DNA from: an uncultured Candidatus Peribacteria bacterium
GTDB taxonomy: Bacteria > Patescibacteriota > Gracilibacteria > Absconditabacterales > Absconditicoccaceae
Direction: 5' to 3'
Length of the DNA stretch: 64,000 nt
Assembly: GCA_964387665.1 (NCBI GenBank)
Contig: CAYLWY010000001.1
Span: 10,075-74,074 of the forward strand
The notes under the pieces are model-generated. The model saw nothing but the letters and a program-made list of their open reading frames with translations. It was not told where the DNA came from and ran no database searches. How positions within the stretch are numbered: the first letter of the stretch is position 1; the number at the start of each line of letters is the position of its first letter. A program made the position numbers and the translations under genes. Shown here piece by piece: positions 25,301 to 60,593 of this stretch.

Positions 25301-26536
25301 TATGACATCGTCAGCGTGCTTGTTTAACCAATCCCACTCCGCGGCTTGTGCTACGTTTTTAAAACCACGTCCAAGTATAGCCATTGTATAATCCAATGGG
25401 CGACCCACTGCTCCCAATACTGGAAAATCTTCTCGAAGTTTCTCCTGCTTAGCCATTAACTCTTCATGCTCGATTAATCGCTGGGCTTCGTTTGGGTTTT
25501 GTTTGATAAGCGCTAATTGCGCGTGACGGGCGTTGTTGAGTCCTCGGATTGCTCCAAGCGCCTTCTTTATAGCTGGATGCTCTAGTTTTCCTTTATTAAC
25601 CCTTTCGTAAGTTTCTAAATCTTTACGACCGGTTGGGGATAGTTGGGCAACAAGTACCATATTTTGGTACTCCTTTAATACTTTATCATATTCCCCGGTA
25701 CCGTTTTCTTGGTCATACTCCTCCTGAGCTTTGGCTATATTCTTCCAAGCGGCTTGTTCGTAGTTCTGCACGGCCTCCGACCCGACTCTAATACGACCTC
25801 GCTCGACTAACTCTGGATTTGAATCGTATATTTTCATACGATCGTCGTAGTTAGTCATCTGCCGTATACCCCAACCAATTGGGTCTTCATCACCCGTAAT
25901 CTCGGGAATGTCAGCTCCTTTTAAACTGCGTTGCTTTGCAGCTTGTTCTTCTACTATATCTTCCGCAGTGGCCATTGCTAGTCCACCAACGGGATTAATA
26001 GCCGCTTTCCAATAACGACGTATAGTCTTAGTGACCTCCTCGAACATTCCAGGCTCTTCCTCCTTGGGGGCCTCTGGTTTAGGTTCCGGTGCCTTCTCCT
26101 TTGCCGCAGGTTCTTGACCCTTCTTAAACATCTCCTCAAAAGCACCGTAACTAACATCAATAGCATCTGGCATCTCTTTCGAGATATCGTCATACACTTT
26201 CCCCAAATCCCCAGAATCCATCCAAGCTTTTGTAAGCTCTGCGTCAGATACGGATCCCATAAACTGCGGGTTCGCCTTCTTGATATTTTTGGCCAAGGTA
26301 GCTAGCTTGCCGGGATCTAGTGGGGCTTTTTCGGGGGCTCTACCCATGGCCTGCTGCAAGAACTGGTCACGGGGCATGTCTACCATATCTGGATGCTTAG
26401 CCTGCAACGTGTCGTAAAAAGACGTCGCGAACCGTTGGTCTTGCATATCAGCCGCCAATTGCTCCGCCGTCTTTTCCGGATATAAAGATGGATCAAGTTG
26501 TTTGATCTGTTTTAATGCTTCAGTTATGTTACTCAT
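16322..26536 (-). CDS. giant multidomain virion/ejection protein (3404 aa), polyvalent-type
   Basis: The ORF is uninterrupted over 10.2 kb. Residues about 1265-1720 hold two paralogous HG[ST]...GxYF/V modules. HExxH motifs lie at about aa 1739 (HELAH) and 2047 (HEAIH). Hydrophobic segments occur near the C terminus. It is the last gene of the late block. Confidence 0.85.
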   Translation of the reverse strand: MSNITEALKQIKQLDPSLYPEKTAEQLAADMQDQRFATSFYDTLQAKHPDMVDMPRDQFLQQAMGRAPEKAPLDPGKLATLAKNIKKANPQFMGSVSDAELTKAWMDSGDLGKVYDDISKEMPDAIDVSYGAFEEMFKKGQEPAAKEKAPEPKPEAPKEEEPGMFEEVTKTIRRYWKAAINPVGGLAMATAEDIVEEQAAKQRSLKGADIPEITGDEDPIGWGIRQMTNYDDRMKIYDSNPELVERGRIRVGSEAVQNYEQAAWKNIAKAQEEYDQENGTGEYDKVLKEYQNMVLVAQLSPTGRKDLETYERVNKGKLEHPAIKKALGAIRGLNNARHAQLALIKQNPNEAQRLIEHEELMAKQEKLREDFPVLGAVGRPLDYTMAILGRGFKNVAQAAEWDWLNKHADDVIARRVTSGPNDMAQAWSHYFMDDNGNRVIVDPESRQIIGARDADGNILKDYTPTDEDSTRAQTAELQTEFSKSGTLSIVADVLGDLVFDAVVTRKVGGIAKGLGASTKIASAIGTVSAGYLRTQDAAVQTSLEAGRTGGEVWLDKFAKGMMIGGTSLINPIEGKWAARMMGGVPASTLTKAMQRYSLGKATWTDTLMELGKSTIRSTAGEMVEETVQDHILERGYNALVYGDEFRIDPLAISETLLVSGIVGAIGGSVPNIGAYSKTGLTYDAIQTVLKNPKLVESYLEGVAAIDPELAATKGQKIAEISSALKAMEVSDKDLAKATQALMMRGALIDKHGALKETGASKQILEPLELEIQKIDNQLAEIVNPKLPKVDTEEESPETKAPETLTATPEAAPAEAAPQYEELAKTTKREVDPEAWKLGTSTFVSDVATYEAWRIDALDKKPGELPQESLKRFGEKLDPNKTIREQLGDKAGIPKIKAVPIPKDLDAFEDLVMIPGLLRAGNRGLLEEEVEEGDGNKKQRRKKRLGIVISKKRADDSEGMQYLGDARTEKMKAFRDIMEKGQKQKWTLDKVYSELDKQNIQIGIGKDILWDQKAQGMASKQYADALIEELLAYTPKKKPAKTTATINVKGKGAVTYTYNETSEKWEAPDGKNAPGIRVRQINAALAKEPPKKPEATTETKPAAEPIVPRKKVVTVRDAQRNNITYTYDPETGKFRDKDGKAPTGKRKQIVERAANLTSKPAKATTETAKEVAKPTTKPVSEAQKTAIAEEIGAKVQTKPRNIKGLLQVMSQIFGLNNEQAKAAAAVGDALVTTMAKRAGITKDEMYQRIAYEKSTMEGLPKGVKLQDIETILDVYHGTSKDKDFKKFRDTGKGVFVTVSPQEASNYATENDSMKFGDYDHVTGKFAEINTASRVIPMKLELGKAYKITSEDFKFLNSKPNYGRLQKELHDKIKREGYDVIDYGKGVYAVLSEGRLRSMLTNEVLFQENTNIPEGVKFQIDAWHGSPHQVDKFSTENIGTGEGAQAFGWGLYFTDLENIARYYAEKLSTPVVEINGIDKKDYKYPSDIDIVVQAHIQHAIGVGIKDKYNKRISIDYLEGAYVRSGREVYKKALDFINNNNISVDISRNLYKVSLHKGKTPDQYTWLEWDKSTPYSIINKIKKVLPELSVVNKSDYDVEESFGYGGTFRGYVINSNRGGNLGGLFRTKEEAESYLDKSVNSGQSIYESISEELGSDKAASKFLLENGIDGIKFPAESVARGTTSDTARGFNYVVFDENAVSIEEVIKFQKDAIQARGAMMTAMDNQAIVYALTDPNVSTPMHELAHVYEHYLTDAERNAILDWAGHKKWTVKTSEKFARGFEKYLADGIAPTPKLKKAFESFKQWLTDIYNGVTGSDIDLELNDTMVDIYSTMLGEEIPKASIGSSPTQASIPAGVKETIDAYVDKQIAEGLPLVPSEVYPDGYPEGVTEATVQARIIANLRSNPKAAKGYLNQLLSEAFPTQEDTTISDADRAWVREMSGRVLRRENPYAFPVKALLSRFEIRRRASKAKGEMKKFYDLVGMIQKSFKDSGIQIFVHDTVESYANGIAQISTYEGTTQSLAVNSKGIYGNGQIHLFTGARDFTAETALHEAIHPMLIDLIAKQPNLYKDLVSNMVSDPILFERYWAGFAWEGYAQVAPETPEEAAALIDELDNEALTQLLATETMAKVFQNLPKQRKSVRERLQNFLNDVLSALGLTNAAARVNKFFDKNEVFDGFFDDLSTVDMFSTRLANALIKGQGIPLDKLYTDSADIYAHKQKAETQKTKEELAKLLEHWRLITNGNITYREFVASLEENPLYMELSYNDIREVFDGVIPDLFTAEQRASWENLKNTTPESWKHKLEGDGVAIHTDKRNIELAYKVLKLDKRDPVIGMTGADVVTAAVHDHHFDNIEHSLRTAERLFSGEIDSVPVSAEFAMMFTAEKAKARAEELEIILDKMEADVKAIYQTGHPDATAWQLFSKQYIAERDAYHAISMAVQQSGTGHARALAFRRWGIGKTYEQRAMAALKPTAPKQYHKKAEKLIDDIRKLEATIEKFQYDPDERVFLQFKSAFERAFAKSFTGKAAPTTAQAILAKWATKHKPNASMSKPLFITTSTTPDMRQFLYDVKQVTIIVGRDTMGSPDAVVGEVIRLYDSIGYKLSEMDVYVAMAYDSVEHVSQSITAYEDWKKETIAAAKAATKLSSIVSEFAIDVQKRLREYKNDREESARLVKASQLYPETQSQQQFVLVNQIIDRLMAQAAAFEHSPEQATWLINNINRLQSEFTNIFRYDYPITEDKLARILENARNIQSFQQSERLQRAMADVDTKLATLKQAATSVDPAAKYKAILGLTPVLDKKYEAPEVAKARAELAAKRRELRRAIEDGNRATRGKILTAITKTLSTIRVSKTMFDMSSFSNQGGMALRIAMAQGAYSLMGGSMKNQFSFTDLIEGYKKSWIAATDELTKRDESKTIEAYESIINDPMYAVAKMAKLAITVPKEGMDLAEEYFMDSYLDDLGKWARTGDKNKILAGMADLPSRIKDASESHYVTYLNHLRFAMFKAYYQQAAELQNGIVTVEEMQLIAESINVWTGRADTFLGHKVSPIVSSFLWAPRYYAAQIKGMMYLVTSPLRMAQAYARIHGLIPEKAELELYGKEAMNRKYAGQIRAHQHRTAGTIAQTLVFLAVHAGLHRLFKLACDEEEGGGGLGLDYRRSDFLRLRCGSAVYEYMAGNAYWLRTGAQMLDRFAEATNANITIGGTSYPTKTGPLADQNVWTLGMRVLEGKLNPVVSVGKTLATRRDFRGRLIGDSYLDALFIIGRDALTPLTISAGLETIVELSNDDDTNAATVIARMLHFFGPTMHGAGYYYSDDAMDTFAAAEQLDNVNSERLLRGVGNLRVIPDPKKGLELSAEAKNEYTKLFRQRISQILLDYSNRDEQITDAKLRSEIRKANREISEEMAKRISEGEF
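21380..22744 (-). other. two tandem PARP/ART-like (H-Y-E type) modules inside the 3404-aa protein
   Basis: Module 1 reads LDVYHGTSKDKDFKKF...GVFVTVSPQEASNYA...GYDVIDYGKGVYAVLSEG. Module 2 reads IDAWHGSPHQVDKF...GEGAQAFGWGLYFTDLENIARYYA...GIDGIKF...NYVVFDEN. Boundaries are approximate. Confidence 0.5.
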
Positions 26537-26537
26537 G

Positions 26538-29165
26538 CTAGCTATTCTGTAGTTCCTTTAACCCACGATCTATTAAAGCGGCTTCTTTTTTACCGCGTTC
26601 TCCAACCGAGTCCTTTTGAACAAGTTCTTTTACTTTCTGCCAATTCTTACTTTTAAGTGCGGCTCCGTACTTGTTTGGGAAACCCGTACTACCTTTTTGG
26701 TAATACTGAGACAAAAGTACGGTTTTTAATGCTACTGGAAGTGTATCAAATTCAATTCCGTATTCTTTTACCTGAGCTCTAACCCCCCTTAGATTAGCCA
26801 ACTGCATAGAGCCCGTAAGGAACTTCGCTTCAGTGGGAGAGATTCTAAGAGGATTCTTCTTTAAGAACGCTACCGCGGCCCCTTTTTTCAGGCCCAAATA
26901 CGGTCTTAACTTCTCGATAAGATAAGGTGGTATGCCCGCTCTTTTAAGTTCTGCTACGCCTTGCCCGCCTAAATCTACTCCTCCACCAATGGTTACACCA
27001 CTGTTAAGTAACGCTTTACCTTCTTTCATTGGAACGTGGCCCTTACCGTTTTCCTTATCACCTTCTACCAAGGTCATGAAGTCTAAGTCTAAGTGCTTTT
27101 TTATAGTACTTTCTATTTTGCTGTAAGCCGTCTCTAGCGTCTGCTTCCTATTTAAAGTAGCTTTCCCAGTGCTGTTTAACCGGTGTAGCGCGTGATTCGT
27201 GTACTTCTTTTTGGCGTTATTCGCCTCGAGAATTTTGGGACCTTGATTAAAATCACTTACCCAAGCCTCGCCAGTCCACGTTTGCATATGTCCATTACCT
27301 CCACCGCCGGCAGATGCTACAATATCCCCAACTTGCCATTGTGATGGATCAGACAGGTAATTGTCTGGTAAAGCTGTTTTTGGGTTATATCCTTTAGACG
27401 CTTGGAAGTCAGCCTTACCGGTTGTGGAAAAATCGTCGGCATTTCCACCGATGTTTTGGGTGGTTGTAAACCAATCCAAACCAGTCATTGCTCCTACGAA
27501 ACACTTAACACCCCGTCCACAAGCGCCCACAGAAGACTTGGCTCCTTTTTCTAAATTAGCCGCAGTTTTCTTACCTAGCGCATCTGTTCCCGCATACGTA
27601 GCAGCTTCTTTAGTCAATCTATCTACTGAAATAGTAGGAGAAGATGTGGTGGTTTCAGTGTTAGTTGTAGTTTCCGTTGCTGGTTGAGTGGCTTCCCCAG
27701 ACATTATCGAAGATAGTGTTATTGGTTTAGTAGCCCCGGGTTGTGCCGCACCGGTCGCTGTTTGAGTCGTTGGTGCAGGGCCTGACATTACCGTTTTAGC
27801 TAACGCATGGACTTCACTCCAGCCTTGTCTAATTGATGCCTCGTCTTCAGACCCAAGAAGGCTTGCTAGCCCGGCCCGCATAGGCGCGTAAGTAGTTTCC
27901 CCAAAGTCCGCCGTAATAAAAGCATCGGCGTCTCGCGCGGCTACCTGTCCTAAAAAGTCTTCATAAGTACCTGTAAAACCATTTTCAGCATTAACCGAGG
28001 CCGTGTATAACGCCCGTAACCTATTACCACGTCTCCAAGCCTCTTTATCTATCGCCGTGTGTACGTCTTTTATTACCTCTTTAGAAGTTTTATTTGCAGT
28101 ATCTTTTTTAGCATTTGCTAATTGTGACAATATTTCACCTACTAAGGCAGTGCTTGCTGGATCTTCTAAGTCTACTCCTTGATTAGTGCCATAGATAAAG
28201 AAGTTATCAAACAGTGCAGCATCTACATCCTTAAGCCCACGTCGGCTAGCTGGAGTTCCGCCTTGAGCGTCTATGCGAAGTCCTGCCGAATTTAGTCCGG
28301 TTTTATTGCTTGGTAAGTTCTTTATACCAACAATCTGTTTAGTTTCTTGATTATAGGCACTAAGGATATCTTGAGTGTATTTTACCCCAGACTCTGTTAG
28401 TTCCCCGCTTTGTGGGTCGAGGTAACCCTTAGCAATCATATTGTTTCGGAACTTAGGGTCTTGCATACGCTCCGCCAAAATACTATCCAATGCCTCTTGG
28501 CTACGTTTTTGTATCTGCTCTTCGTACGAAACAGTATTGTTTTGAATTAGTTCAGACGTAGAGATTTGTGGTATCTTAGAAAACCGATCCATCAAATCCG
28601 CCGTTATATCTAAATCTTTATACGCATCTCCATTTATCTCTAATCCAGTTTTTTCACCATTCTGGTAAGCCCGGACTTGGTCAAAAAACATTTCTTGTAA
28701 TTTAGGATCTGCTGGAGGGTCTTTTACATACGCATTTAAGGTAGAATCAAAGACCGCCTGTTCGCGTATGACGTTCCTAATAGCCCCATCTGATACGAAC
28801 GCCGAAGTAGCTTTTGCGACATTCCCCATTGTATATGGGTTTTTCAATTGCTCGGCGCTCATATTAAACATGTCCTCAGAAATTCCAATACGTTGCTTGG
28901 TTTCTTCAATCACTTGTTGCTGGTTGACATTGTCATATCTGACTTTAGTTATCGCGTCATAAGCAGACGCCAACCCCGCCATATTATCTTGCGCTACTTT
29001 ACGATCCTGTTCTTGGATTTTAGTATACGTATCCAGGGCAGAAGTCAGCGGCGTAAGGCTGACTTCGGGTAAATCTAATGTAGGGGCATATGATACATTT
29101 GGTACACCTAAACCGGTATTAACGTCATGTATTACTGATCCTCCTCTTTGGTATCGCTTTGTCAT
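26538..29165 (-). CDS. internal virion/ejection protein (875 aa) with CHAP/NlpC-like and lysozyme-like domains
   Basis: A Cys...His pair (VGACGRGVKCF ... GNGHMQTW) lies at about aa 549-630. The C-terminal stretch GVTIGGGVDLGGQG resembles GH24/pesticin-type muramidase motifs. Confidence 0.75.
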   Translation of the reverse strand: MTKRYQRGGSVIHDVNTGLGVPNVSYAPTLDLPEVSLTPLTSALDTYTKIQEQDRKVAQDNMAGLASAYDAITKVRYDNVNQQQVIEETKQRIGISEDMFNMSAEQLKNPYTMGNVAKATSAFVSDGAIRNVIREQAVFDSTLNAYVKDPPADPKLQEMFFDQVRAYQNGEKTGLEINGDAYKDLDITADLMDRFSKIPQISTSELIQNNTVSYEEQIQKRSQEALDSILAERMQDPKFRNNMIAKGYLDPQSGELTESGVKYTQDILSAYNQETKQIVGIKNLPSNKTGLNSAGLRIDAQGGTPASRRGLKDVDAALFDNFFIYGTNQGVDLEDPASTALVGEILSQLANAKKDTANKTSKEVIKDVHTAIDKEAWRRGNRLRALYTASVNAENGFTGTYEDFLGQVAARDADAFITADFGETTYAPMRAGLASLLGSEDEASIRQGWSEVHALAKTVMSGPAPTTQTATGAAQPGATKPITLSSIMSGEATQPATETTTNTETTTSSPTISVDRLTKEAATYAGTDALGKKTAANLEKGAKSSVGACGRGVKCFVGAMTGLDWFTTTQNIGGNADDFSTTGKADFQASKGYNPKTALPDNYLSDPSQWQVGDIVASAGGGGNGHMQTWTGEAWVSDFNQGPKILEANNAKKKYTNHALHRLNSTGKATLNRKQTLETAYSKIESTIKKHLDLDFMTLVEGDKENGKGHVPMKEGKALLNSGVTIGGGVDLGGQGVAELKRAGIPPYLIEKLRPYLGLKKGAAVAFLKKNPLRISPTEAKFLTGSMQLANLRGVRAQVKEYGIEFDTLPVALKTVLLSQYYQKGSTGFPNKYGAALKSKNWQKVKELVQKDSVGERGKKEAALIDRGLKELQNS

Positions 29166-29172
29166 ATGTTAT

Positions 29173-31611
29173 TTATTGTCGGTTTGGTGTTTTATTTATA
29201 TCGTAGGCCGGCATCGCTGTTATCGGTGGGAAATTAGGATCACGCGCATCGTAAATTATCTTACCATTTCGATCGCGAATTATTACTACTACTTTTCTCC
29301 CTTTCGCTCCATACTTACCTGTAGTGTCGAGAATTACATCACCTTTCTGGGCATATCTAATAGCCCCTGGGCCTTTTCCTGGGTCTAAGAGATTTGGGCT
29401 AGGTAAGTCTCCGTCTACTTCATTCGTTCCGTAATAATACCTTCCTCCACTAGCTGGGGTTATTTTCCAAGTATTGCCTGCATATGTCTCGATTCGTTTA
29501 CGATCTGCGGAGCTTAATTCGGGGCTTTCTATGAATGTTTCATACTCCGGTCTAGGTGTCTCGGTGGTACTTCCAGGTATCATGGGTATCACGTTAGGCC
29601 AGGAGTCTATTTCTGGTGTATTTTCTTGGGGTATACCTGGAGTTGGTAATAACGTTGTATCGATTTCTTCAATAGTAGGTTGCTCACCGCCTAATGGCAT
29701 CTCGCCACTTTCTAATAAATCCACACCGTCTATCTCTTGATCGGCTTCCGGGCTTGCTACTACCGTCTGCTCTTCCCCAGTTATTGGCTCCGTTTTGGTA
29801 GTGGTAGTTGGGATCGCATCTCTAGCGGTTGTCAAGGGGCCTTTTTTCTGACTTGCCGCTAGTAGGTTTGCGTCGTCGCGTTGTGTCTTCAGAACCTCCA
29901 ACGCTTTTTCTAGATCTTTTCCAACGAATCCTACTTCCGCTAATAATGTCCTATACTCGTTATCTGTGTATTCCTTTTTCGCGCCACGTCTAGTAGCTAC
30001 GTCCATGGTTTCTAGATTAGCTAGATTTTTACTATAATCCGTAGACGTGTCTGCGAGTTGTTGAATTTGTTGATTTTGGGCAGCTAAAATAGCGTTATCG
30101 TTATTCGTCCTGCTCGCCATATTCGCATTCTCTAGCGAGGTTAAGAAGTCAAAATACTGCGCATCTGCCTGGGCATTAGTCGCAAAGCGCTGTGCTGCTA
30201 ACTCGTTTTGACCAGATACGTGTCTACTGTAAAGTGGAGCAAGAAGAGATGATATTTCAGAAGGACGTGCTCCTTGCATACGTAACGTGTCGGCAACTGC
30301 TCTTAGCTGTGACTCGGATTCTACCCGTTTAACGTCGAGTAGGTATTGTGGCATTCTCGACGCCTGCCTTCTTGCGTCTGCAAATCCACGATCCTGTAAT
30401 ACCGGTTTGGTATAAGGGCTTTGCGCTATAGTGCCGGCTGCTGAAGAAGTAAATTGGCGACCGGCATATCCACGTAATTTATCCATTAATGTAGCGTAGT
30501 CTTCTGTAGATGCCGCATAATTAGCCTCGTTATCACTTCGCATCTTGTCGAATAGTTGTGGATACCTAGCGTAGAATTCACCTAACATGTCTTCCATGGT
30601 TTTCGGTTTGTTTGGATCCGAAACCATCGATGTTCCTGGGGTTAGCCTTCTCGCTTCTGGCTCTCCATAAACGCCGCTGTTGGCTGCGTCTAATAAATCT
30701 GCATCTGATATCCCTGTAGATTCTAATGGGTCATACGGATCAATTCCCGAAGTTAAAGGAGGGCCATCTTCTATGTTCGTAACTAAAGGGTTGAACATGT
30801 CAGGTATTGTATAATGAGGGGCCCTTGGGGGTTGCCCAGGGCGTACTGTCTCACCTGTTTGGGGAGCTTCTTCTGGGCTGGGGGTTGTTGGGAATGTTTT
30901 ACTTCCGATAGATGGTAAAGGGGATAATATATCCGCATACGGTCCTTGGGTGTAACTACCCGGTGCTTTTGCTGTTGGTGGCGCTGTTTGTGGTAAAGTG
31001 GGCCTGCCACCTGGTATTGGTGTAAGCTTAGTGGGTAATGTACTAGGGGTAAAGCTTCTGTTTTTATCGAGCATAACTGGGAAAAGGTCACGTTCGTAGT
31101 AGTCTCTCTCTTCCTTAGAATTATCTGCAGCATCATATTCCGCAGTTCCTGGTACTAAACCTAACCCCCTTGTTAGGTAATCTTCGAAATTAGCTTCGAA
31201 TTCTTCTTCAGGATTTGTTGAGTTATATGCTTGTTGATTGCTGTTCCATACCGATCCTCCGCTTTGCTTCTTAGGTATCTCCAAAACCGCGGCGGCTCCC
31301 TTGAACATGTGGTCTGTTCCGGGTTTCATAAGCCGAGGCATTCCGACATTCATATTGGCATCTAGAGGATACCCAACAACAGGAAAAGGCGTATCCTTCA
31401 TGGTGATATTACCACCTGGAATAATATTAAAAGGGTTGTCAAACGACTCTGCCCCGGGCGTGTAGCCCTCCATATTAACAGGAGACCCCCCAAACTGCAT
31501 AGCTAAAGCGCTAACGCCTTTCATGTCGCCCTTCTCTATCAATCTACGTACCTTCCGTTCTAGATGTCTAGGTACTACAACTGTATTTCCAAGATTGTCT
31601 TTTATTTTCAT
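29173..31611 (-). CDS. proline-rich internal virion protein (812 aa)
   Basis: Long ORF with a Pro-rich low-complexity middle region. The C terminus (KGDVILDTTGKYGAKGRKVVVIIRDRNG) is weakly reminiscent of an RlpA-like barrel, at low confidence. Confidence 0.7.
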   Translation of the reverse strand: MKIKDNLGNTVVVPRHLERKVRRLIEKGDMKGVSALAMQFGGSPVNMEGYTPGAESFDNPFNIIPGGNITMKDTPFPVVGYPLDANMNVGMPRLMKPGTDHMFKGAAAVLEIPKKQSGGSVWNSNQQAYNSTNPEEEFEANFEDYLTRGLGLVPGTAEYDAADNSKEERDYYERDLFPVMLDKNRSFTPSTLPTKLTPIPGGRPTLPQTAPPTAKAPGSYTQGPYADILSPLPSIGSKTFPTTPSPEEAPQTGETVRPGQPPRAPHYTIPDMFNPLVTNIEDGPPLTSGIDPYDPLESTGISDADLLDAANSGVYGEPEARRLTPGTSMVSDPNKPKTMEDMLGEFYARYPQLFDKMRSDNEANYAASTEDYATLMDKLRGYAGRQFTSSAAGTIAQSPYTKPVLQDRGFADARRQASRMPQYLLDVKRVESESQLRAVADTLRMQGARPSEISSLLAPLYSRHVSGQNELAAQRFATNAQADAQYFDFLTSLENANMASRTNNDNAILAAQNQQIQQLADTSTDYSKNLANLETMDVATRRGAKKEYTDNEYRTLLAEVGFVGKDLEKALEVLKTQRDDANLLAASQKKGPLTTARDAIPTTTTKTEPITGEEQTVVASPEADQEIDGVDLLESGEMPLGGEQPTIEEIDTTLLPTPGIPQENTPEIDSWPNVIPMIPGSTTETPRPEYETFIESPELSSADRKRIETYAGNTWKITPASGGRYYYGTNEVDGDLPSPNLLDPGKGPGAIRYAQKGDVILDTTGKYGAKGRKVVVIIRDRNGKIIYDARDPNFPPITAMPAYDINKTPNRQ

Positions 31612-33749
31612 TTCCGCTTCTTTGATAAAGCTCCCTTCTTACGTAAGGGAGGTCTGTTTTGTTTCCCAATTCGAGCTAGGTAAATTTGGCTCGGGTCTAT
31701 TTTATCTCCAAACATTTCGGTACGATCTCCAACTCCTTTCGTAGCTTTTTGAGTACTTCTGTATTTTATTCCTACTACGTTTTTATCGTCGTCATATACC
31801 CAATCTTTAAATATTACTGAATGACCAGAGCCATTCTTTCGCCAGATTTGCGCAATGTCGCCGGGTTTTGCGCTTTCGTGGGGTACTTCGTATCCGAGGC
31901 CATACTTCTGCAAAGCCGCAGTTGAAAGCGATTCTTTGTCCCCTTTCTTATAGTCTTTAGCTCCGTACCATATCTGTTTAAAGTCGGCTAGTTGCTTGTC
32001 GTCTAGGTCTTTTAGTAAGCCTGAATCTTGCATTGCTTTTAAAGATACGCCACAGGTATACCCGGAACAGTAAGTTCCTTCGGCTTGCTTGGCTAGTATC
32101 TTAGCGCTGTTGTGTTCTATGTCATATGGAGATCCACTTCCGGAAGGGTCCCAATTGTAACCGCCGCCTTCTAGGGAATCCGCTAATTGTAAAATAGCGG
32201 CGTTATAATCCGGCTCAGATTCGCGATTCACAAAATCAGGTATTGTAAATATTCCTTTTTGGGATTTTTGTACACCCCCGCCTTGTTGGAAAAATTTATT
32301 AGATAATCTATTAAAAGCCTGTCCATCTACTACTTTAATAGCGTCACGTACTTTAGCTCCTCTATCACCTAATATGGGAGTTATGCTATTATGGCCTACT
32401 TGGAGATACCCATCTTCGAACAACGAGCCAGAGGGGACCTTGTTTATATCAAAATCAGGGAAATGCCTATTGTAATTCTTTTTAGCTTGGGATGTAGTCC
32501 TCATCCTTAGTACCTTATTGATAAGCCCTTCGGGCATTTGATCTTTATAGACCTTTACATAGTAAGGATTTTCTCCTCCATATCTAGGTCCTAGCCAAGT
32601 AGGGTCATTTGAATAATATAGAATATCTTTGTTGGTACCTTTAACTAATTCTTCATGCCCACCTGACCTTCTACCTCTATTAAAAACATTGTTAGGGGCT
32701 ACTGTAGTGCCCATATACTTAGCCACATCGTAGGGATCATCTGGGTTTAATCCAGCCGAAGCTATGTTCTGCCTTATTATAGGATCTCGCATTAAATCAG
32801 GGTTAACGTCTACTACTCTATATAAAGGCTTAGTGTTATATTGTTGATCTAGCCATTTATCAAAACCTGCGGGATTATCAGGTATAGATCCCACTAACCC
32901 TTGGCTTTGTAATTTTTTAGCTAAGGCATGGGCTTCTTGTACGTCCGCCGACGTCGCTCCATCAGAAGTCCTTCTTACTATCCGAGCCCAATCGTCAGAG
33001 GGATCAGGTGCGCTTTTGAATTTAATAGGGAACCCACTTGCGGCTACGTTGTGATCTAGCGCCCATTGCATCCCTGGGCTATTACTAGGACTTGTAGGTA
33101 TTTTTTTAGCTAAATCTTTTATTTTACGCGCCGCTAACGACTTGCCTATACCCCTTAGTCCCGCCCCCACGATAGCTGGATCTAGCATGTCTAGGGCAAA
33201 ACCAGGCACGCCACCTACTCCAGTAACTTCTGACATGGTACGCTGACCTCCAGGATAAGTAGTTCCTTGGCCATACAGGGGATTAAATAAATCATAAGGA
33301 CGGCCTTTAAGCGCTTCGTAGCCTTCCGCCAATAATGAGTTACCTATTTGAAAAGGATCAAGAGGTAATAAATCAGTAGGGCTTTCTATCTTTCCGGAAC
33401 CTCTTTTAAGTTTGTCTTCTAGTACCATTCGGGCAGGGCCAGCAAGCTCCGATCCCCAAGGATTTGTTTTTAGACCTTCTAGCGCTTTGTTAAAGTCGCC
33501 GCCGTAATTCTCTTTAGCCCAATGTACTAGCTGTGGTTCCCAAGCTGCGCGTTGATCGTCGGTGAGTGTTGTACCCCCATGTTGCTTCTTTACAGGTACG
33601 ACTTTCTGATATACGTCAGGGTGTGCGTCCTTGAGGTAGGCTAGTGCTGTATGCCGGGCTTTTGTCTTGGACATGCCCTGGGATACGTAGTAAGGAATTA
33701 ACTCAGTATTTAAGTATTCCTTAAGATGTGCTACTCGACTATCTGCCAT
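31608..33749 (-). CDS. internal virion protein (713 aa) with C-terminal NlpC/P60- or CHAP-like cysteine peptidase domain
   Basis: The candidate Cys/His catalytic pair is EGTYCSGYTCG (Cys about aa 561) ... NGSGHSVIFKDW. Confidence 0.7.
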   Translation of the reverse strand: MADSRVAHLKEYLNTELIPYYVSQGMSKTKARHTALAYLKDAHPDVYQKVVPVKKQHGGTTLTDDQRAAWEPQLVHWAKENYGGDFNKALEGLKTNPWGSELAGPARMVLEDKLKRGSGKIESPTDLLPLDPFQIGNSLLAEGYEALKGRPYDLFNPLYGQGTTYPGGQRTMSEVTGVGGVPGFALDMLDPAIVGAGLRGIGKSLAARKIKDLAKKIPTSPSNSPGMQWALDHNVAASGFPIKFKSAPDPSDDWARIVRRTSDGATSADVQEAHALAKKLQSQGLVGSIPDNPAGFDKWLDQQYNTKPLYRVVDVNPDLMRDPIIRQNIASAGLNPDDPYDVAKYMGTTVAPNNVFNRGRRSGGHEELVKGTNKDILYYSNDPTWLGPRYGGENPYYVKVYKDQMPEGLINKVLRMRTTSQAKKNYNRHFPDFDINKVPSGSLFEDGYLQVGHNSITPILGDRGAKVRDAIKVVDGQAFNRLSNKFFQQGGGVQKSQKGIFTIPDFVNRESEPDYNAAILQLADSLEGGGYNWDPSGSGSPYDIEHNSAKILAKQAEGTYCSGYTCGVSLKAMQDSGLLKDLDDKQLADFKQIWYGAKDYKKGDKESLSTAALQKYGLGYEVPHESAKPGDIAQIWRKNGSGHSVIFKDWVYDDDKNVVGIKYRSTQKATKGVGDRTEMFGDKIDPSQIYLARIGKQNRPPLRKKGALSKKRK

Positions 33750-34765
33750 TTGTTTCCAAATTTAGGTGGCGCAGGTGGGGTTCCGTATTTTCTTAGTACG
33801 AATTTATCTTTACCAAACGTTCCGAATTGGAACTCTTCGGGCATCTGCTCCTCCATTTCCCCCTCGCCGCCAATCGTTGAACCCATCCTTCCAGATTCCA
33901 TATTCTTCTGGTCCTGGAGGCTTATTAACTCCATGAGGTAGGGTACTCTCGTTTCTAGATTATCTGTATCGGTTGCGAGGTTTAATATATCATTACTATC
34001 CCCAACAGTCTTTATCTTATTCCGTAGTGTCTTGGCCGCAGCCGCAAAAGTAAGTTTCCCCTTTTTAGGGAGGAAATCTCCTAACAACATCTCCTCGGTA
34101 TCGTAGTCGGTATGTTCGTCGTAGTGTGACATCCCATAACCAATGACTTTATCTTTAACGTCTTTCACGTTAAACTTCATGTTTTTGTCATCAGAAAATA
34201 CATACGAACCCTCTGGTAGTATGTCGGTAACTTTTTCATCCGACATATTCGAGTGCTTCTTCTTTGCCTTGACATTGGGGAGTGTATTGTCGGGGAATAA
34301 AACGACTTCCCCATACTCTGTTTGGGCCATTACATCTCCGGGGGTTTCCCCACCGAACTGGGCATAATACCCTAAATCTTGTGATACTTTTTTATTTTCG
34401 TGTTGTTGCTTTTCGTATAGTTGCCGCAGGTTGTCATATGCACTTGCGTTTCGGGCTGTCGTAAAACCCGCCATTCCCGCTCCTATAAGAGCTCCGGGTA
34501 TGCCTCCTACTGCGGCCCCCTGTAAAGCCCCCGCTCCAATACCCATTGCTACGTTTGGTCTAAATCCAGGCGCATTAGCCCCACTCATGGCTAGTTGAGA
34601 AAGCGGTGCCATAAAAGACCCCGCCGATTTAGTTTCGTCATTCGCGATTTTCCAATACTTTGCCCAACTGTTTTCCTCTTCCTCTACATCTGGGTCGTAT
34701 GTATAATCGTCGTAATTCTCCTCTATTTGAGGTGTGCCAAATTGATATTTAAATAACGGAAGCAT
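33731..34765 (-). CDS. virion protein (344 aa) with glycine-zipper hydrophobic segment
   Basis: The segment is GANAPGFRPNVAMGIGAGALQGAAVGGIPGALIGAGMAGF, with an acidic N terminus. Confidence 0.7.
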   Translation of the reverse strand: MLPLFKYQFGTPQIEENYDDYTYDPDVEEEENSWAKYWKIANDETKSAGSFMAPLSQLAMSGANAPGFRPNVAMGIGAGALQGAAVGGIPGALIGAGMAGFTTARNASAYDNLRQLYEKQQHENKKVSQDLGYYAQFGGETPGDVMAQTEYGEVVLFPDNTLPNVKAKKKHSNMSDEKVTDILPEGSYVFSDDKNMKFNVKDVKDKVIGYGMSHYDEHTDYDTEEMLLGDFLPKKGKLTFAAAAKTLRNKIKTVGDSNDILNLATDTDNLETRVPYLMELISLQDQKNMESGRMGSTIGGEGEMEEQMPEEFQFGTFGKDKFVLRKYGTPPAPPKFGNKWQIVE

Positions 34766-35085
34766 ATTACGGTAATTGTTACTACGATTAGTGGGAATAC
34801 TAAATCGACGTTTTGTAGTAATTGGTAAACGTCGGATTTTTCAAATGAGTAATTGTCGTACATCGGTCGCCCGTAGATGTGGATAAAAACGTTATTCTCT
34901 AAATACGTAAGTGGACAACCGTTGTACAAAAATACAACTGCCACCCACACATATAACGATATATAAAGTCTCAATAAAGCCCGAATTGGCCTAAATCTCC
35001 AGGTAGAGAATACTAGGACAATACCCCATATAAGAAGATAATGCAGTATTGTTACAATTAATTTAGCAGTATCAAAACACATCAT
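34723..35085 (-). CDS. small multi-pass membrane protein (120 aa)
   Basis: It has three to four hydrophobic segments and the motif NGCPLTYLE. It overlaps both neighbours slightly. Confidence 0.55.
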   Translation of the reverse strand: MMCFDTAKLIVTILHYLLIWGIVLVFSTWRFRPIRALLRLYISLYVWVAVVFLYNGCPLTYLENNVFIHIYGRPMYDNYSFEKSDVYQLLQNVDLVFPLIVVTITVICFRYLNINLAHLK

Positions 35086-42561: not shown

Positions 42562-42563
42562 AA

Positions 42564-43091
42564 TCAGTCTATATGGGCTCTATAATCCGGAACTGCTGGA
42601 TTTTCGGAGCAGGCTTTTATGTGTTTGGCTAACCCTAAATTACCAACCCATTCCTTGTTTTTGGTACCTCTAGTTGGGATGAATTTATAAGGCGTTAAGA
42701 TCTTTGGCGTAAGGCCATTTTTTCGCATTACGATTTTAAACAACCGCCCACTGGAATGCATATTGCTATGGCGTACCAATTTTCTAAGTTTTTTCGAAGA
42801 TACCCAATCTACGGGACGTCTTTGACCAACCATTTCTTTAACATAAAACTCCAGCTTAGTGTATGGCATTTGAAATCGCCACAACTCTGTCACCATAGCT
42901 TTATAAATCTCGGTATGGACGCGCTTTAAAATGTCAGAAAATTCAGAGTACGAGTAGGCCTCACCTCTTCCTTTTTTGTACATGCGCCATAAATACTCAC
43001 TTTGTATTACTAAATAACCGTTACGATTTGCTTTGTATCTATGTTTACTGTTTACTGCTCGTGTTTTGTACTGCTGCATCGGGTATATCAT
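42564..43091 (-). CDS. hypothetical basic protein (175 aa)
   Basis: Track ORF with an uncertain start (it overlaps the upstream ORF by 47 nt). Confidence 0.6.
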   Translation of the reverse strand: MIYPMQQYKTRAVNSKHRYKANRNGYLVIQSEYLWRMYKKGRGEAYSYSEFSDILKRVHTEIYKAMVTELWRFQMPYTKLEFYVKEMVGQRRPVDWVSSKKLRKLVRHSNMHSSGRLFKIVMRKNGLTPKILTPYKFIPTRGTKNKEWVGNLGLAKHIKACSENPAVPDYRAHID

Positions 43092-60360: not shown

Positions 60361-60593
60361 TACTTTTTCTTTGCAACAGGTTTCTTAGTTACGGGCGTCT
60401 TTTTAGCTGGTGGTTTATATGGCGTAGAAAACGGGAGTGGTCCGGCGTTTCTCGCGGACTCTAAGTCACGCTTACGCTTTGATTCCTGCATCTGCGCCTT
60501 CTTCTTCTTCTTGGCAGCACGTTCCTTACGGTCGTTATCCCAATCGAATCCAACGGTATATCCGCCATATTGCTTCTTGGTCGCTTTCGCCAT
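60360..60593 (-). CDS. very basic Lys-rich protein (77 aa)
   Basis: Track ORF 60360..60617, trimmed to the ATG that overlaps the capsid gene TAA (TAATG). It ends PPAKKTPVTKKPVAKKK. Confidence 0.6.
   Translation of the reverse strand: MAKATKKQYGGYTVGFDWDNDRKERAAKKKKKAQMQESKRKRDLESARNAGPLPFSTPYKPPAKKTPVTKKPVAKKK

What the first reader, a model, noticed from the sequence alone, without database searches (positions are those of the whole stretch)
26538..34765. Recurrent K/M-Q-x-G-G motif in the presumed internal/ejection proteins, a candidate processing or targeting signal
Q-x-G-G occurs eight times in six proteins. The 875-aa protein has YQRGG-S at residue 6. The 812-aa protein has AMQFGG-S and KKQSGG-S. 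The 713-aa protein has KKQHGG-T and FQQGG-G. The 344-aa protein has AQFGG-E. At the second locus (59949-60593), the 97-aa basic protein has KMQSGG-R and the 77-aa basic protein has KKQYGG-Y. By eye I found only one further Q-x-G-G in all other proteins of the window (QEGG in the 2160-aa protein). The contexts are similar to each other: a basic or hydrophobic residue, then Q-x-G-G, then a small residue. Cleavage after Gly-Gly is the hallmark of adenovirus protease, the ASFV polyprotein protease and ubiquitin-like proteases. Two of the motif-bearing proteins themselves carry papain-like Cys/His (CHAP/NlpC-like) domains. The hypothesis is a virion maturation or capsid-targeting system based on Q-x-G-G sites.
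Basis: partly seen in the sequence, partly recalled or inferred. Interest (0 to 1): 0.7.

Follow-up and report, generated by a model that had tools for sequence, protein, structure and literature searches.

The report
Recurring Y/K-Q-x-G-G signal in phage cargo proteins
A short sequence signal (basic/aromatic residue, Gln, any residue, Gly-Gly) really does mark the N-termini and module junctions of the proteins that this crAss-like phage ejects into its host. It is conserved across hundreds of related uncultured phages and looks like an undescribed processing or packaging signal, but cleavage has not been shown.

Summary
The six named proteins (2,926 aa) hold 8 non-overlapping Q-x-G-G sites against about 1 expected. 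It is the top-ranked of 40,000 tripeptide patterns.

The window is a distant crAss-like phage with tail ring proteins, a muzzle protein, cargo proteins and a giant polyvalent protein. The motif is family-wide:
- In 149 representative homologues, Q.GG occurs 496 times against 59 expected (z about 58). The consensus is K-[Y/F]-Q-x-G-G.
- It is position-specific. G-G is strict, P4 is Q, P5 is aromatic and P1' is free.
- It lies in low-confidence (likely flexible) segments at module junctions.
- In 44 of 148 proteins it ends a short, very basic N-terminal leader.
- In 80 independent IMG/VR loci it is enriched only in the cargo ORFs (1.7 per 1000 aa against 0.26 elsewhere).
- One cargo module has bacterial homologues that carry a Sec signal peptide where the phage copies carry this leader.

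My best reading is a recognition signal for sorting and proteolytic processing of cargo polyproteins (confidence about 0.45 for actual cleavage). No protease was identified. The two papain-like domains are probably cell-wall hydrolases and are not universal. A non-cleaved docking motif remains a serious rival. I found no description of the motif in the literature searched.

The parts
29139..29150 (-). Q-R-G-G site, residues 6-9 of the 875-aa cargo protein. It ends the N-terminal leader MTKRYQRGG|S.
   Evidence: Conserved in L001. Same type of leader as in 44 of 148 family proteins and in the syntenic 686-aa protein of L011, MKKRIYKYQQGG.
26538..29165 (-). 875-aa cargo protein. It has an N-terminal leader, a Cys549/His626 papain-like (CHAP/NlpC-like) region at about 27126-27578, and a C-terminal pesticin-type lysozyme at 26685-27092.
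   Evidence: Pfam Pesticin, E = 3e-28, residues 692-827. The Cys/His region was read from the sequence only.
31486..31497 (-). Q-F-G-G site, residues 39-42 of the 812-aa cargo protein, immediately before the 72-aa beta domain.
   Evidence: 63 of 148 homologous domains have Q.GG within about 16 aa upstream.
31267..31485 (-). Conserved ~72-aa beta domain of the 812-aa protein (residues 43-115). Consensus: [VI]N.TGYTPG..S.NNP.NIIPS..ITM..TPFPV.G....G....M.PG..Y.F.....V.E[IV]P.
   Evidence: 449 hits in the exhaustive HMMER search. AF2 model: mean pLDDT 82.8, most core 10-residue blocks 92-96, flanking motif blocks about 53. No significant PDB fold match. BFVD matches only uncharacterised phage proteins.
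31255..31266 (-). Q-S-G-G site, residues 116-119 of the 812-aa protein, at the end of the beta domain (VLEIPKKQSGG|S).
   Evidence: The aligned position is Q.GG in Cellulophaga phage phi4:1 gp040 (QAGG), Leptolyngbya phage Lbo-JY46 (QAGG) and L001 (QYGG). 76 of 148 domains have Q.GG at their C-terminal edge.
33573..33584 (-). Q-H-G-G site, residues 56-59 of the 713-aa cargo protein.
   Evidence: In L001 the homologue (276 aa) joins residues 1-59 directly to residues 499-713.
32289..33572 (-). Optional ~430-aa module of the 713-aa protein (residues 60-487), bounded by the two Q.GG sites.
   Evidence: Absent from the L001 homologue. The alignment breaks fall at the motifs.
32277..32288 (-). Q-Q-G-G site, residues 488-491 of the 713-aa protein, immediately before the papain-like C-terminal module.
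   Evidence: Stand-alone phage homologues of this module begin MKTNKANKKIKKYQEGG| and MNLLRKYQQGG|.
31611..32267 (-). C-terminal papain-like Cys/His module of the 713-aa protein (residues 495-713; invariant Cys561 and His643).
   Evidence: 35 homologues. Many of the ~200-aa ones begin with hydrophobic N-terminal segments that read as Sec signal peptides, and at least three are on Bacteroidota or long bacterial-length contigs. AF2 pLDDT 87.4. Weak Foldseek matches to cysteine peptidases (7v6t, IdeS/IdeC; E = 4e-3, TM 0.27-0.56).
34349..34360 (-). Q-F-G-G site, residues 136-139 of the 344-aa cargo protein. It lies between a Gly/Ala-rich hydrophobic segment and a conserved module.
   Evidence: YAQFGGE matches YAQAGGE in phi4:1 gp041. 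The module after the site occurs inside 42 of the 149 family polyproteins, and several alignments start at residues 131-148.
33731..34765 (-). 344-aa cargo protein. It also carries relaxed sites: KYQFGT at residues 6-11 and EFQFGT at 311-316.
60168..60179 (-). Q-S-G-G site, residues 22-25 of the 97-aa basic protein (59949-60242). It ends a 21-residue basic leader.
60561..60572 (-). Q-Y-G-G site of the 77-aa basic protein (60360-60593). Leader: MAKATKKQYGG|Y.
   Evidence: The ATG overlaps the MCP stop codon as TAATG.
35072..41554 (-). 2160-aa muzzle protein, which sets the context. It has a single QEGG at 41006-41017, probably a background occurrence.
   Evidence: Pfam crAss_MUZ, E = 3e-16. In IMG/VR loci the ORF upstream of the cargo ORF has near-background motif density, 0.33 per 1000 aa.
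16322..26536 (-). 3404-aa giant polyvalent protein downstream of the cargo genes. It has no Q.GG. HExxH motifs lie at residues 1739 and 2047.
   Evidence: Pfam ART-PolyVal. HExxH motifs, both conserved in the Lbo-JY46 giant ORF.
41554..43809 (-). crAss-type tail ring proteins R1 (41554-42561) and R2 (43045-43809), which identify the virion type.
   Evidence: Pfam CrAss_Ring_1, E = 1.4e-21, and CrAss_Ring_2, E = 6e-14.

Best explanation
K/R-rich leader plus [Y/F/K/M]-Q-x-G-G is a short linear recognition signal specific to the ejected 'cargo' proteins of a clade of crAss-like phages. The clade includes this phage, Cellulophaga phages phi4:1 and phi17:2, Leptolyngbya phage Lbo-JY46 and hundreds of uncultured relatives.

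The cargo is built from exchangeable modules: peptidoglycan hydrolases, membrane-active segments, a 72-aa beta domain and ADP-ribosyltransferases. These modules are encoded either as separate genes or fused into polyproteins of up to about 2,700 aa. Each module is preceded by the signal, either as a short basic N-terminal leader or as the junction to the preceding module.

The most likely mechanism is as follows. A Gly-Gly-specific endopeptidase, phage or host, not yet identified, recognises P5-P1 and cuts after the second Gly during or after incorporation into the procapsid. This removes leaders and separates modules. It would be analogous to T4 gp21 with its capsid-targeting sequences, to phiKZ gp175, and to adenovirus protease acting on core proteins.

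Shown here: the motif's existence, specificity, conservation, location at leaders and junctions, and restriction to the cargo genes.
Inferred: recognition by a protein partner.
Not shown: cleavage, and the identity of any protease.
For: Window:
- 8 sites against 1.03 expected, 0 of 20,000 shuffles, top of 40,000 patterns.
- Codons at the sites differ, so this is not a DNA repeat.

Relatives:
- All sites are kept in L001. There the sequence diverges or is deleted immediately after two of them.
- phi4:1 gp040 has 4 sites and gp041 has 1.
- Lbo-JY46 has 2 + 2 sites in two adjacent cargo proteins.
- L011 has 7 + 1 sites in its two cargo proteins and none elsewhere. L013 has 5 + 1 + 1.

Family of 149 representatives:
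- 496 sites against 59 expected. With the domain core masked, 492 against 56, z = 58.
- Permuted patterns (QGG, Q..GG, GG.Q and others) have O/E of 0.7-2.0. At P4 only Q is strong (8.4x), with K and R at 2.0-2.3x. No substitute for either Gly exceeds 2.2x (Q.GM). P5 is Y (7x), F (5.9x) or M (3.2x). P1' is broad.
- In alignments of 60% identity or less, Q, G and G are 53%, 69% and 66% conserved, against about 30% for the flanks and 26% for x.

Position:
- BLAST HSP ends fall within 5 aa of a motif in 19-21% of cases, against 4.6% for random positions, even after excluding the domain.
- 44 of 148 proteins start with a leader of mean length 12.5 aa that is 37% K+R.
- The AF2 model gives the flanking motifs low confidence.

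Within-genome control in 80 IMG/VR loci: 1.70 per 1000 aa in the cargo ORF, 1.37 and 0.83 in the next two ORFs, 0-0.33 upstream and 0.26 elsewhere.

The leader sits where a signal peptide would be: bacterial homologues of the 713-aa C-terminal module start with what read as Sec signal peptides, and phage versions start with M..KKYQEGG.
Against: - No peptidase family was detected in the window proteins scanned or in 39 late proteins of phi4:1.
- The HExxH zincin-like motifs of the giant protein also occur in FpV4 and crAss001, which lack the motif, and are absent from phi4:1 gp035 and gp038.
- The papain-like modules are not shared by the family.
- MCP and scaffold carry no site, so this would not be a general head-maturation protease.
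- When the 72-aa domain is at the very N-terminus, or stands alone, the 'KKYQ' or 'KKQ' part is kept but Gly-Gly is often lost (for example MKKKYQRKS... and ...EVPIKKQSLYNKIFKK). This suggests the upstream half has a role that does not need cleavage.
- No protein ends at ...Q-x-G-G (0 of 132).
- The crAss001 cryo-EM and mass-spectrometry study reports no cargo processing, although crAss001 lacks the motif.
Confidence: 0.45

Rival explanations
1. The motif is a non-cleaved docking or packaging signal. The basic-aromatic-Q-x-G-G peptide, often preceded by a (L/E)-I-P strand, binds a repeated site inside the procapsid, portal or tail barrel, or binds a chaperone. Every cargo module is thereby recruited and held in an extended state. 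Several copies give avidity. Nothing is cut.
For: - N-terminal copies have nothing upstream to be separated from.
- The extended consensus E-[IV]-P-x-[YF]-Q-x-G-G repeats the last beta strand of the 72-aa domain. The leaders of L013 cargo proteins read LIPSYQFGG and LIPRFQQGG.
- 'KKYQ' and 'KKQ' persist without G-G at N-terminal and stand-alone domains.
- In crAss001, short segments of cargo protein gp45 are bound at 12 or 6 symmetric sites on the ring, portal and muzzle proteins (PMC10172136).
- No protease was found.
- From my own knowledge, PVC/eCIS cargo uses uncleaved N-terminal packaging leaders.
Against: - A strict G-G with no tolerated substitute and an unconstrained following residue is more typical of a protease subsite pattern than of a binding peptide.
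- Up to 8 copies per protein at module borders, with a median spacing of 153 aa, fit polyprotein junctions.
- Phages with the stand-alone domain have no motif enrichment, so the domain is not an obligatory partner.
Confidence: 0.3
2. The motif is a passive flexible hinge. Gly-Gly linkers are favoured between modules of extended, unfoldable ejection proteins. The neighbouring Y/F-Q is a by-product of local composition or of shared ancestry of the linkers.
For: - The sites are in low-confidence, presumably flexible segments and at module borders.
- Cargo proteins must unfold to pass through the tail (PMC10172136).
Against: - A hinge is not needed 5-25 residues from an N-terminus (44 of 148 proteins).
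- Order and spacing are strict: QGG, Q..GG and GG.Q are not enriched or only about 2x.
- Q is conserved 53% against a 30% background in divergent alignments.
- P5 aromatic is enriched 6-7x.
- Codons differ and the contexts are otherwise unrelated, so common descent of a linker is unlikely.
Confidence: 0.1
3. The motif is a covalent modification or cross-linking site. The Gln of K-K-[Y/F]-Q-x-G-G would be an acyl donor, and the flanking Lys residues acceptors, for a transglutaminase-like (papain-fold) enzyme. This would stitch cargo proteins together or to the virion. Alternatively, the site could be used in a Pup/ubiquitin-like reaction.
For: - Invariant Gln next to Lys-rich sequence.
- Two papain-fold Cys/His domains in the cargo proteins of this window.
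- From my own knowledge, transglutaminases share the papain fold, and Pup ends in ...Y-V-Q-K-G-G-Q.
- P1' Glu is enriched 2.7x.
Against: - The papain-like modules are absent from most motif-bearing relatives.
- Homologues of the 713-aa module are secreted bacterial enzymes.
- No motif lies at a C-terminus.
- There is no direct evidence of any kind.
Confidence: 0.07
4. Chance, or an artefact of post-hoc pattern picking within one window.
For: Within the window alone, after correction for 40,000 patterns and for choosing the protein set afterwards, significance is only borderline.
Against: There is independent replication:
- in 149 representative proteins (z about 58),
- in 80 IMG/VR loci with a within-genome control, and
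- in cultured phages infecting two host phyla.
There is also column-level conservation.
Confidence: 0.01

Closest known systems
Adenovirus protease (adenain, MEROPS C5) acting on core and cement precursors pVII, pX/mu, pVI, pIIIa, pVIII and pTP (own knowledge; review PMC4246237 listed)
   Same: - Consensus with Gly at P2 and P1 and a defined P4: (M/L/I)-x-G-G|x.
- Substrates are internal, often very basic DNA-associated proteins that lose short N-terminal peptides. Compare the 77-aa and 97-aa basic proteins here.
- There are several sites per virion proteome, and the major capsid protein is spared.
   Different: - P4 here is Gln with an aromatic or Lys at P5.
- No C5 or clan CE peptidase was detected.
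- This is a tailed phage with modular polyproteins.
- Cleavage is unproven.
T4 prohead protease gp21 with capsid-targeting sequences of the internal proteins (L/I-x-E|), and phiKZ/SPN3US gp175-type proteases (S/A/G-x-E|) acting on inner-body and ejection proteins (own knowledge; PMC5694885 and PMC9026906 listed)
   Same: - A short motif is shared by many internal or ejected proteins.
- An N-terminal leader of about 10-25 residues both targets the protein to the procapsid and is removed at the motif.
- Large internal proteins carry multiple sites.
   Different: - The motif chemistry differs (Gly-Gly rather than Glu at P1).
- In T4 and phiKZ the MCP and scaffold are cleaved too, whereas here they carry no site.
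- No protease gene lies between the portal and MCP genes. That position is occupied by a 375-aa acidic, scaffold-like protein with no family hit.
Polyvalent proteins of phages and conjugative elements (Iyer et al. 2017, PMC5512222)
   Same: - Large multi-domain proteins delivered with the DNA.
- The window's 3404-aa protein and family member P0012 carry the ART-PolyVal domain.
- SLT, YkuD and peptidoglycan-binding domains occur in family members.
- That paper proposes proteolytic release of domains.
   Different: - That work proposes zincin-like MPTase autoprocessing and, in the passages found by term search, describes no junction motif.
- Here a defined junction/leader motif is found, and it does not track HExxH domains.
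crAss001 cargo proteins C1/C2 (gp45, gp46) and crassvirus virion architecture (Bayfield et al. 2023, PMC10172136)
   Same: - The gene order is the same: ring proteins, muzzle, cargo proteins, giant RNAP-associated/polyvalent proteins.
- Pfam CrAss_Ring_1, CrAss_Ring_2 and crAss_MUZ all hit.
- Cargo proteins have a Gly-rich hydrophobic segment and a basic N-terminus.
   Different: - crAss001 has no Q.GG at all in 50 kb that include its cargo genes.
- FpV4 has none in its cargo genes.
- The motif is therefore specific to one environmental branch, and no processing is reported for crAss001.
SUMO/Smt3 precursor processing by Ulp/SENP (Q-[T/I]-G-G|) and other Gly-Gly-directed papain-like peptidases (own knowledge)
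   Same: The four-residue core Q-x-G-G is identical, with cleavage after Gly-Gly.
   Different: - Ulp recognises a folded beta-grasp domain before the site.
- Here the sites are mostly in unstructured leaders and linkers.
- The one folded domain that precedes a site has no significant PDB fold match of any kind (best Foldseek E = 0.097).
- No C48 peptidase was found.
Sec signal peptides, and N-terminal packaging leaders of PVC/eCIS cargo (own knowledge)
   Same: An N-terminal, positively charged, module-independent tag. In the family of the 713-aa C-terminal module, the tag occupies the position that a signal peptide occupies in the bacterial homologues.
   Different: - There is no hydrophobic core.
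- The tag is much shorter.
- It also occurs internally at junctions.

Membership tests
crAss-like (Crassvirales-type) virion module | Paralogous tail ring proteins R1 and R2 | tested here: met
   Pfam CrAss_Ring_1 (41554-42561; E = 1.4e-21) and CrAss_Ring_2 (43045-43809; E = 6e-14), both above the curated cut-off.
crAss-like (Crassvirales-type) virion module | Muzzle protein followed by cargo genes and giant RNAP-associated/polyvalent protein(s) | tested here: met
   Pfam crAss_MUZ on the 2160-aa protein (E = 3e-16). The same synteny is seen in L011, L013, phi4:1 and Lbo-JY46. RNA polymerase activity of the 3404-aa protein was not tested.
Polyvalent proteins (Iyer et al. 2017) | A large multi-domain protein with effector domains typical of the class, in a virion or transfer context | tested here: met
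   ART-PolyVal PF18760 at residues 1271-1397 of the 3404-aa protein (41.6 bits against a cut-off of 31.2). Family members carry ART-PolyVal, SLT, YkuD and PG_binding domains.
Polyvalent proteins (Iyer et al. 2017) | Zincin-like MPTase domain proposed to process the polyprotein | tested here: inconclusive
   HExxH is present at residues 1739 and 2047 of the giant protein, and 18 HExxH occurrences were listed among the 149 family proteins (17 against 0.6 expected in the domain-masked count). There is no Pfam MPTase hit at E <= 0.01, and HExxH presence does not track the motif.
Adenain-type (clan CE, C5/C48/C63) Gly-Gly maturation system | A clan CE cysteine peptidase encoded by the virus | tested here: not met
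   No such Pfam family in the 24 late-strand window proteins scanned or in 39 late proteins of phi4:1. About 54 kb of this phage's genome lies outside the window and was not examined.
Adenain-type (clan CE, C5/C48/C63) Gly-Gly maturation system | Substrate consensus (M/L/I)-x-G-G|x or G-G|x | tested here: not met
   G-G is met, but P4 is Gln (O/E 8.4). At P4, L, I and M have O/E of 0.8-1.5.
Adenain-type (clan CE, C5/C48/C63) Gly-Gly maturation system | Demonstrated cleavage after Gly-Gly in virion proteins | not testable with these tools
   Requires N-terminal or semi-tryptic proteomics of virions.
T4/phiKZ-type prohead protease with capsid-targeting leaders | A prohead protease gene in the head module (between portal and MCP, or nearby) | tested here: not met
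   The ORF between the portal and MCP genes is a 375-aa acidic protein with no Pfam or PHROG hit. No peptidase hit anywhere in the module.
T4/phiKZ-type prohead protease with capsid-targeting leaders | The same motif in the MCP and scaffold as well as in the internal proteins | tested here: not met
   The MCP (60593-62149) and the 375-aa protein have no Q.GG.
T4/phiKZ-type prohead protease with capsid-targeting leaders | Short N-terminal leaders ending in the motif on internal proteins | tested here: met
   The 875-aa, 97-aa and 77-aa proteins. 44 of 148 family proteins.
Ubiquitin/SUMO-like precursor (beta-grasp domain ending in x-G-G) | A beta-grasp fold immediately before the Gly-Gly | tested here: not met
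   The AF2 model of the 72-aa domain (pLDDT 82.8) has no significant PDB match. The best hits are weak and are a protein of unknown function and cupin-type folds (E >= 0.097). Most sites have no folded domain before them.
Double-glycine bacteriocin-type leader (C39 peptidase/ABC exporter) | A leader with hydrophobic residues at -4, -7 and -12, plus an associated C39 transporter | tested here: not met
   Position -4 is Gln, and the leaders are 37% K+R and lack the hydrophobic pattern. No C39 or ABC hit was found in the scanned proteins.
NlpC/P60-CHAP papain-like hydrolases (713-aa C-terminus, 875-aa middle) | A conserved Cys...His pair in a papain-like fold | tested here: inconclusive
   Invariant Cys and His in 23 homologues. 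The AF2 model is confident (87.4). Foldseek hits to cysteine peptidases are weak (E = 4e-3, TM 0.27-0.56). The PDB profile search hits RipA-type NlpC/P60 only at E = 2.4. No Pfam hit. The 875-aa region was judged by eye only.

The most novel reading that the evidence does not exclude
A whole branch of crAss-like marine and environmental phages builds its ejected cargo as modular polyproteins. The modules are tagged and separated by a dedicated K-[Y/F]-Q-x-G-G signal. This signal is read by an as yet unknown Gly-Gly-specific protease, or by another reader that is not a recognisable member of any known peptidase family. It would serve as both the capsid-packaging address and the maturation site. 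That would be the first proteolytic, leader-based cargo-sorting system in crassvirus-type virions. It would also give a simple sequence rule for predicting which phage proteins are injected into the host.
Probability: 0.35. Interest if true: 0.8.

Novelty: new variant of a known kind. Interest (0 to 1): 0.68.

Why it matters
How crAss-like phages select, pack and release their large protein cargo is an open question. The crAss001 structure could only place fragments of one cargo protein.

A short, strictly defined signal that marks every cargo module would have several uses:
- It would give a sequence-only predictor of injected proteins in thousands of uncultured phage genomes.
- It would show that cargo genes evolve by shuffling tagged modules between split and fused forms.
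- It would point to a missing enzyme or receptor that reads the signal.
- It would offer a handle for loading foreign proteins into such capsids.

The hypothesis is directly testable, because Cellulophaga phage phi4:1 is cultured and carries five sites in two virion proteins already verified by mass spectrometry.

Tried and rejected
- **Close relatives in public phage sets.** Megablast and tblastn of the region and of the 812-aa protein against INPHARED found nothing. The IMG/VR scans with single proteins also found nothing.
- **Rest of the genome.** I tried exact-protein look-ups and exact DNA searches in genome contigs and viral contigs. All were negative, so about 54 kb of this phage was not examined for a protease.
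- **DNA-level repeat or internal Shine-Dalgarno (GGAGG) explanation.** Rejected, because the Gly codons differ between sites and no start codon follows at a suitable distance.
- **Ubiquitin-like fold for the 72-aa domain.** Rejected.
- **The 72-aa domain as an obligatory partner or receptor of the motif.** Weakened. 44 of 78 IMG/VR loci have a stand-alone domain with no motif enrichment.
- **Papain-like modules as the universal processing protease.** Rejected as universal, since they are absent from the 149 family proteins.
- **HExxH zincin of the giant protein as the protease.** No correlation with motif presence.
- **PDB sequence searches with the 713-aa and 812-aa proteins.** Nothing significant.
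- **Literature searches** for cargo cleavage in crassviruses, Gly-Gly sites in phage virions, 'QxGG', and polyvalent-protein processing. No description of this motif was found.
- **General Crassvirales feature.** Rejected, because crAss001 and FpV4 lack it.

Full report
**Context**

On the minus strand from 16.3 to 64 kb the window encodes, in order:
- a portal fragment;
- a 375-aa acidic scaffold-like protein;
- the major capsid protein, MCP (PHROG major head protein);
- two small basic proteins;
- tail genes, including crAss-type ring proteins R2 and R1 (Pfam CrAss_Ring_2 and CrAss_Ring_1);
- a 2160-aa muzzle protein (Pfam crAss_MUZ);
- a 120-aa membrane protein;
- four proteins of 344, 713, 812 and 875 aa;
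- a 3404-aa giant protein with an ART-PolyVal domain.

This is the crassvirus layout of rings, muzzle, cargo and giant RNAP-associated/polyvalent protein (PMC10172136). The phage is very distant from cultured ones. The MCP is 25% identical to that of Flavobacterium phage FpV4. There are no nucleotide matches in the phage collection. The finding therefore concerns the cargo (ejected) proteins and two MCP-adjacent basic proteins.

**Checking the observation**

All eight sites are present where stated.

In the six proteins (2,926 aa), composition predicts 1.03 sites and 8 are seen. None of 20,000 shuffles reached 8. Q.GG ranks first among 40,000 gapped tripeptide patterns. Because both the pattern and the protein set were chosen after looking, this alone is only borderline. 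The codons at the sites differ, so the signal is in the protein and not in a DNA repeat.

**Conservation in relatives**

- **L001.** The only close relative is a 9.3-kb metagenome contig, L001. It keeps every site. Two cases are informative. The 812-aa homologue keeps K-Q-x-G-G at residue 116 while the sequence after it diverges completely. The 713-aa homologue is only 276 aa and consists of residues 1-59 joined to residues 499-713. The ~430 residues between the two sites are an optional module.
- **Distant cultured relatives.** The N-terminal region of the 812-aa protein matches a mass-spectrometry-verified virion protein of Cellulophaga phage phi4:1 (gp040) and a protein of Leptolyngbya phage Lbo-JY46. 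Both alignments end exactly at the second site. gp040 carries four Q.GG sites and its neighbour gp041 carries one. The whole phi4:1 genome has 9 sites against 5 expected. Lbo-JY46 has 2 + 2 sites in two adjacent cargo proteins.
- **Phages without the motif.** FpV4 and crAss001 have none in their cargo genes. The feature therefore belongs to one branch and not to all crassviruses.

**Family-wide test**

An exhaustive HMMER search with the 812-aa protein found 449 proteins. Almost all match only a ~72-aa segment. This is a beta-rich domain. AlphaFold gives it a mean pLDDT of 82.8, with most core blocks at 92-96. It has no significant PDB fold match, and its BFVD matches are uncharacterised phage proteins.

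In the 149 listed representatives (128,062 aa):
- Q.GG occurs 496 times against 59 expected.
- With the domain core masked it is the most over-represented pattern, at 492 against 56, z about 58. The only patterns ranked near it are cysteine patterns with expectations close to zero.
- The signal depends on order and spacing. QGG, Q..GG, GG.Q, QG.G and similar patterns have O/E of 0.7-2.0.
- At P4 only Gln is strongly enriched (8.4x), with Lys and Arg at about 2x.
- No residue other than Gly exceeds 2.2x at P2 or P1.
- P5 is Tyr (7x), Phe (5.9x) or Met (3.2x). P6 is often Lys, and P7 is Pro in 109 of 484 sites.
- P3 and P1' are broad, with Glu enriched 2.7x at P1'.
- In alignments of 60% identity or less that span sites not adjacent to the domain, Q, G and G are conserved 53%, 69% and 66%. 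The flanks are about 30% conserved and the x position 26%.

**Where the sites lie**

- Proteins carry 0-8 sites, with a median spacing of 153 aa.
- Ends of BLAST alignments between family members lie within 5 residues of a site in 19-21% of cases, against 4.6% for randomised positions. HSPs overlapping the shared domain were excluded, and HSPs are not independent. The sites are therefore module junctions.
- Known domains fall between consecutive sites: SLT at residues 162-268 in P0020 and ART at residues 325-475 in P0012.
- The module that follows the site in the 344-aa protein is an internal segment of 42 of the 149 polyproteins. The same modules are therefore split into separate genes here and fused elsewhere.
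- 44 of 148 proteins begin with a leader that ends in the motif, such as MKKINKYQFGG or MSNKKYQKGG. The mean length before Gln is 12.5 aa. The leaders are 37% K+R, against a 12% background. The window's 875-aa, 77-aa and 97-aa proteins begin the same way.
- In the AlphaFold model the two sites flanking the domain have low confidence, which suggests they are flexible.

**Within-genome control**

In 80 independent IMG/VR loci holding the domain, the density of Q.GG is:

| ORF class | Q.GG per 1000 aa |
|---|---|
| Large domain-bearing cargo ORFs | 1.70 |
| Next ORF downstream | 1.37 |
| Second ORF downstream | 0.83 |
| Upstream ORFs (rings, muzzle) | 0-0.33 |
| All other ORFs | 0.26 |
| Expected from composition | 0.20 |

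Loci L011 and L013 show the same synteny as the window, and all or nearly all of their sites lie in the cargo genes. In 44 loci the domain is a stand-alone 78-84-aa protein that ends ...EVPIKKQSLYNKIFKK. It keeps the Lys-Lys-Gln but has no Gly-Gly, and these loci show no motif enrichment.

**A leader in the place of a signal peptide**

The C-terminal module of the 713-aa protein has an invariant Cys and His, and its AlphaFold pLDDT is 87.4. Its Foldseek hits to cysteine peptidases are weak. It has ~200-aa homologues, several on Bacteroidota or long bacterial-length contigs, and many begin with what read as typical Sec signal peptides. The phage homologues begin instead with MKTNKANKKIKKYQEGG or MNLLRKYQQGG, or, as here, follow an internal site. 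The motif-bearing leader thus occupies the position of an export signal. This supports its being an address tag.

**Mechanism**

The anatomy resembles the site of a Gly-Gly-directed endopeptidase combined with a capsid-targeting leader:
- strict Gly-Gly;
- defined P4 and P5;
- a permissive P1';
- a location in low-confidence, presumably flexible segments, at leaders and junctions;
- several sites per polyprotein.

Precedents from my own knowledge are T4 gp21 with its targeting sequences, phiKZ gp175, and adenovirus protease acting on basic core proteins. I rate actual cleavage at about 0.45.

The weak points are as follows:
- No peptidase family was detected in the window proteins scanned or in 39 late proteins of phi4:1.
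- The HExxH motifs of the giant protein do not track the motif.
- The papain-like modules are not shared by the family and are more plausibly cell-wall hydrolases.
- The MCP and the scaffold-like protein have no site.
- The upstream K-K-Y-Q part persists without Gly-Gly at N-terminal and stand-alone domains.

These points keep a non-cleaved docking or packaging motif alive (about 0.3). That reading fits the multi-point anchoring of cargo seen in crAss001. A passive hinge (about 0.1), a modification or cross-link site (about 0.07) and chance (about 0.01) are less likely.

**Comparison with known systems and novelty**

The system works like motif-directed sorting and processing of internal virion proteins. 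It is not a member of the adenain, T4 gp21, Ulp/SUMO or C39 double-glycine families, because defining features were tested and not met (see the membership table). The proteins themselves belong to the crassvirus cargo class and to the polyvalent-protein class. In the passages found by term search, the polyvalent-protein paper proposes zincin-mediated processing and mentions no junction motif. The crAss001 structural paper mentions no cleavage. Searches for the motif found nothing. I classify the finding as a new variant of a known kind. The function is unproven, but the sequence feature is real, widespread and apparently undescribed.

**Limits**

- About 54 kb of the phage genome could not be retrieved.
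- The representative proteins were selected for carrying the 72-aa domain, so motif-bearing cargo proteins that lack it are under-sampled.
- HSP-based statistics use non-independent alignments.
- The CHAP-like region of the 875-aa protein was assessed only by eye.

Noticed in passing
window 11676-16325 (+): A 1549-aa ribonucleotide reductase ORF with an HNH endonuclease segment and other inserted sequence. It is probably an intein-bearing RNR (PHROG hits).
   Followed up: no
window 16322-26536 (-): A 3404-aa giant protein with an ART-PolyVal domain (residues 1271-1397), a weak DUF3990 hit, and two HExxH motifs (residues 1739 and 2047). Both HExxH motifs are conserved in the giant ORF of Leptolyngbya phage Lbo-JY46. 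The protein has no Q.GG at all. Whether it is a virion RNA polymerase was not tested.
   Followed up: partly
window 60591-60595 (-): The 77-aa basic protein's ATG overlaps the MCP stop codon (TAATG). This suggests translational coupling and high copy number of this small basic protein.
   Followed up: yes
window 59949-60242 (-): The 97-aa basic protein contains two ~30-aa internal repeats (RPKLPKLPDSTTKGPKAPKLEDRVLP and RPKVPKIPNVTTKGLKVPKLEDRVLP). It also has a relaxed site, YKRGG, near its C-terminus.
   Followed up: no
window 48447-50278 (-): A glycosyltransferase-2/methyltransferase fusion protein (411 aa) and a PAS-domain protein (199 aa) sit inside the structural gene block.
   Followed up: no
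window 31267-31485 (-); loci L008 and L013-L092: The 72-aa beta domain of the 812-aa protein is a widespread, unannotated phage domain. It occurs once per protein at any position. In 44 of 78 IMG/VR loci it is an abundant stand-alone 78-84-aa protein. It has no Pfam family and no PDB fold match.
   Followed up: partly
L013 about 14000-20258: In the closest IMG/VR relative (122-kb contig), no long ORF is found in the standard code downstream of the cargo genes, where a giant ORF is expected. This could be stop-codon reassignment or a poor-quality region.
   Followed up: no
window 33731-34765 (-); L006 23503-24957; L007 29853-31649: The 344-aa protein, FpV4 gp30 and an Lbo-JY46 protein share a module with the pattern E-x-G-E-[VI]...H-x-x-G-G...P-x-G-[ST]-x-[IVY]-[FY]-S. 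It follows a Gly/Ala-rich hydrophobic segment and is the commonest partner module in the family, found in 42 of 149 proteins.
   Followed up: partly
window 35072-41554 (-), residues 622-683: There is a weak Redoxin-like Pfam hit inside the muzzle protein (E = 1e-4, below the curated cut-off).
   Followed up: no
L002-L005 (Cellulophaga phage phi4:1): phi4:1 (genus Lightbulbvirus) has crAss-type ring proteins R1 and R2 and the same muzzle/cargo/giant-protein synteny. It is a cultured model for this branch.
   Followed up: partly
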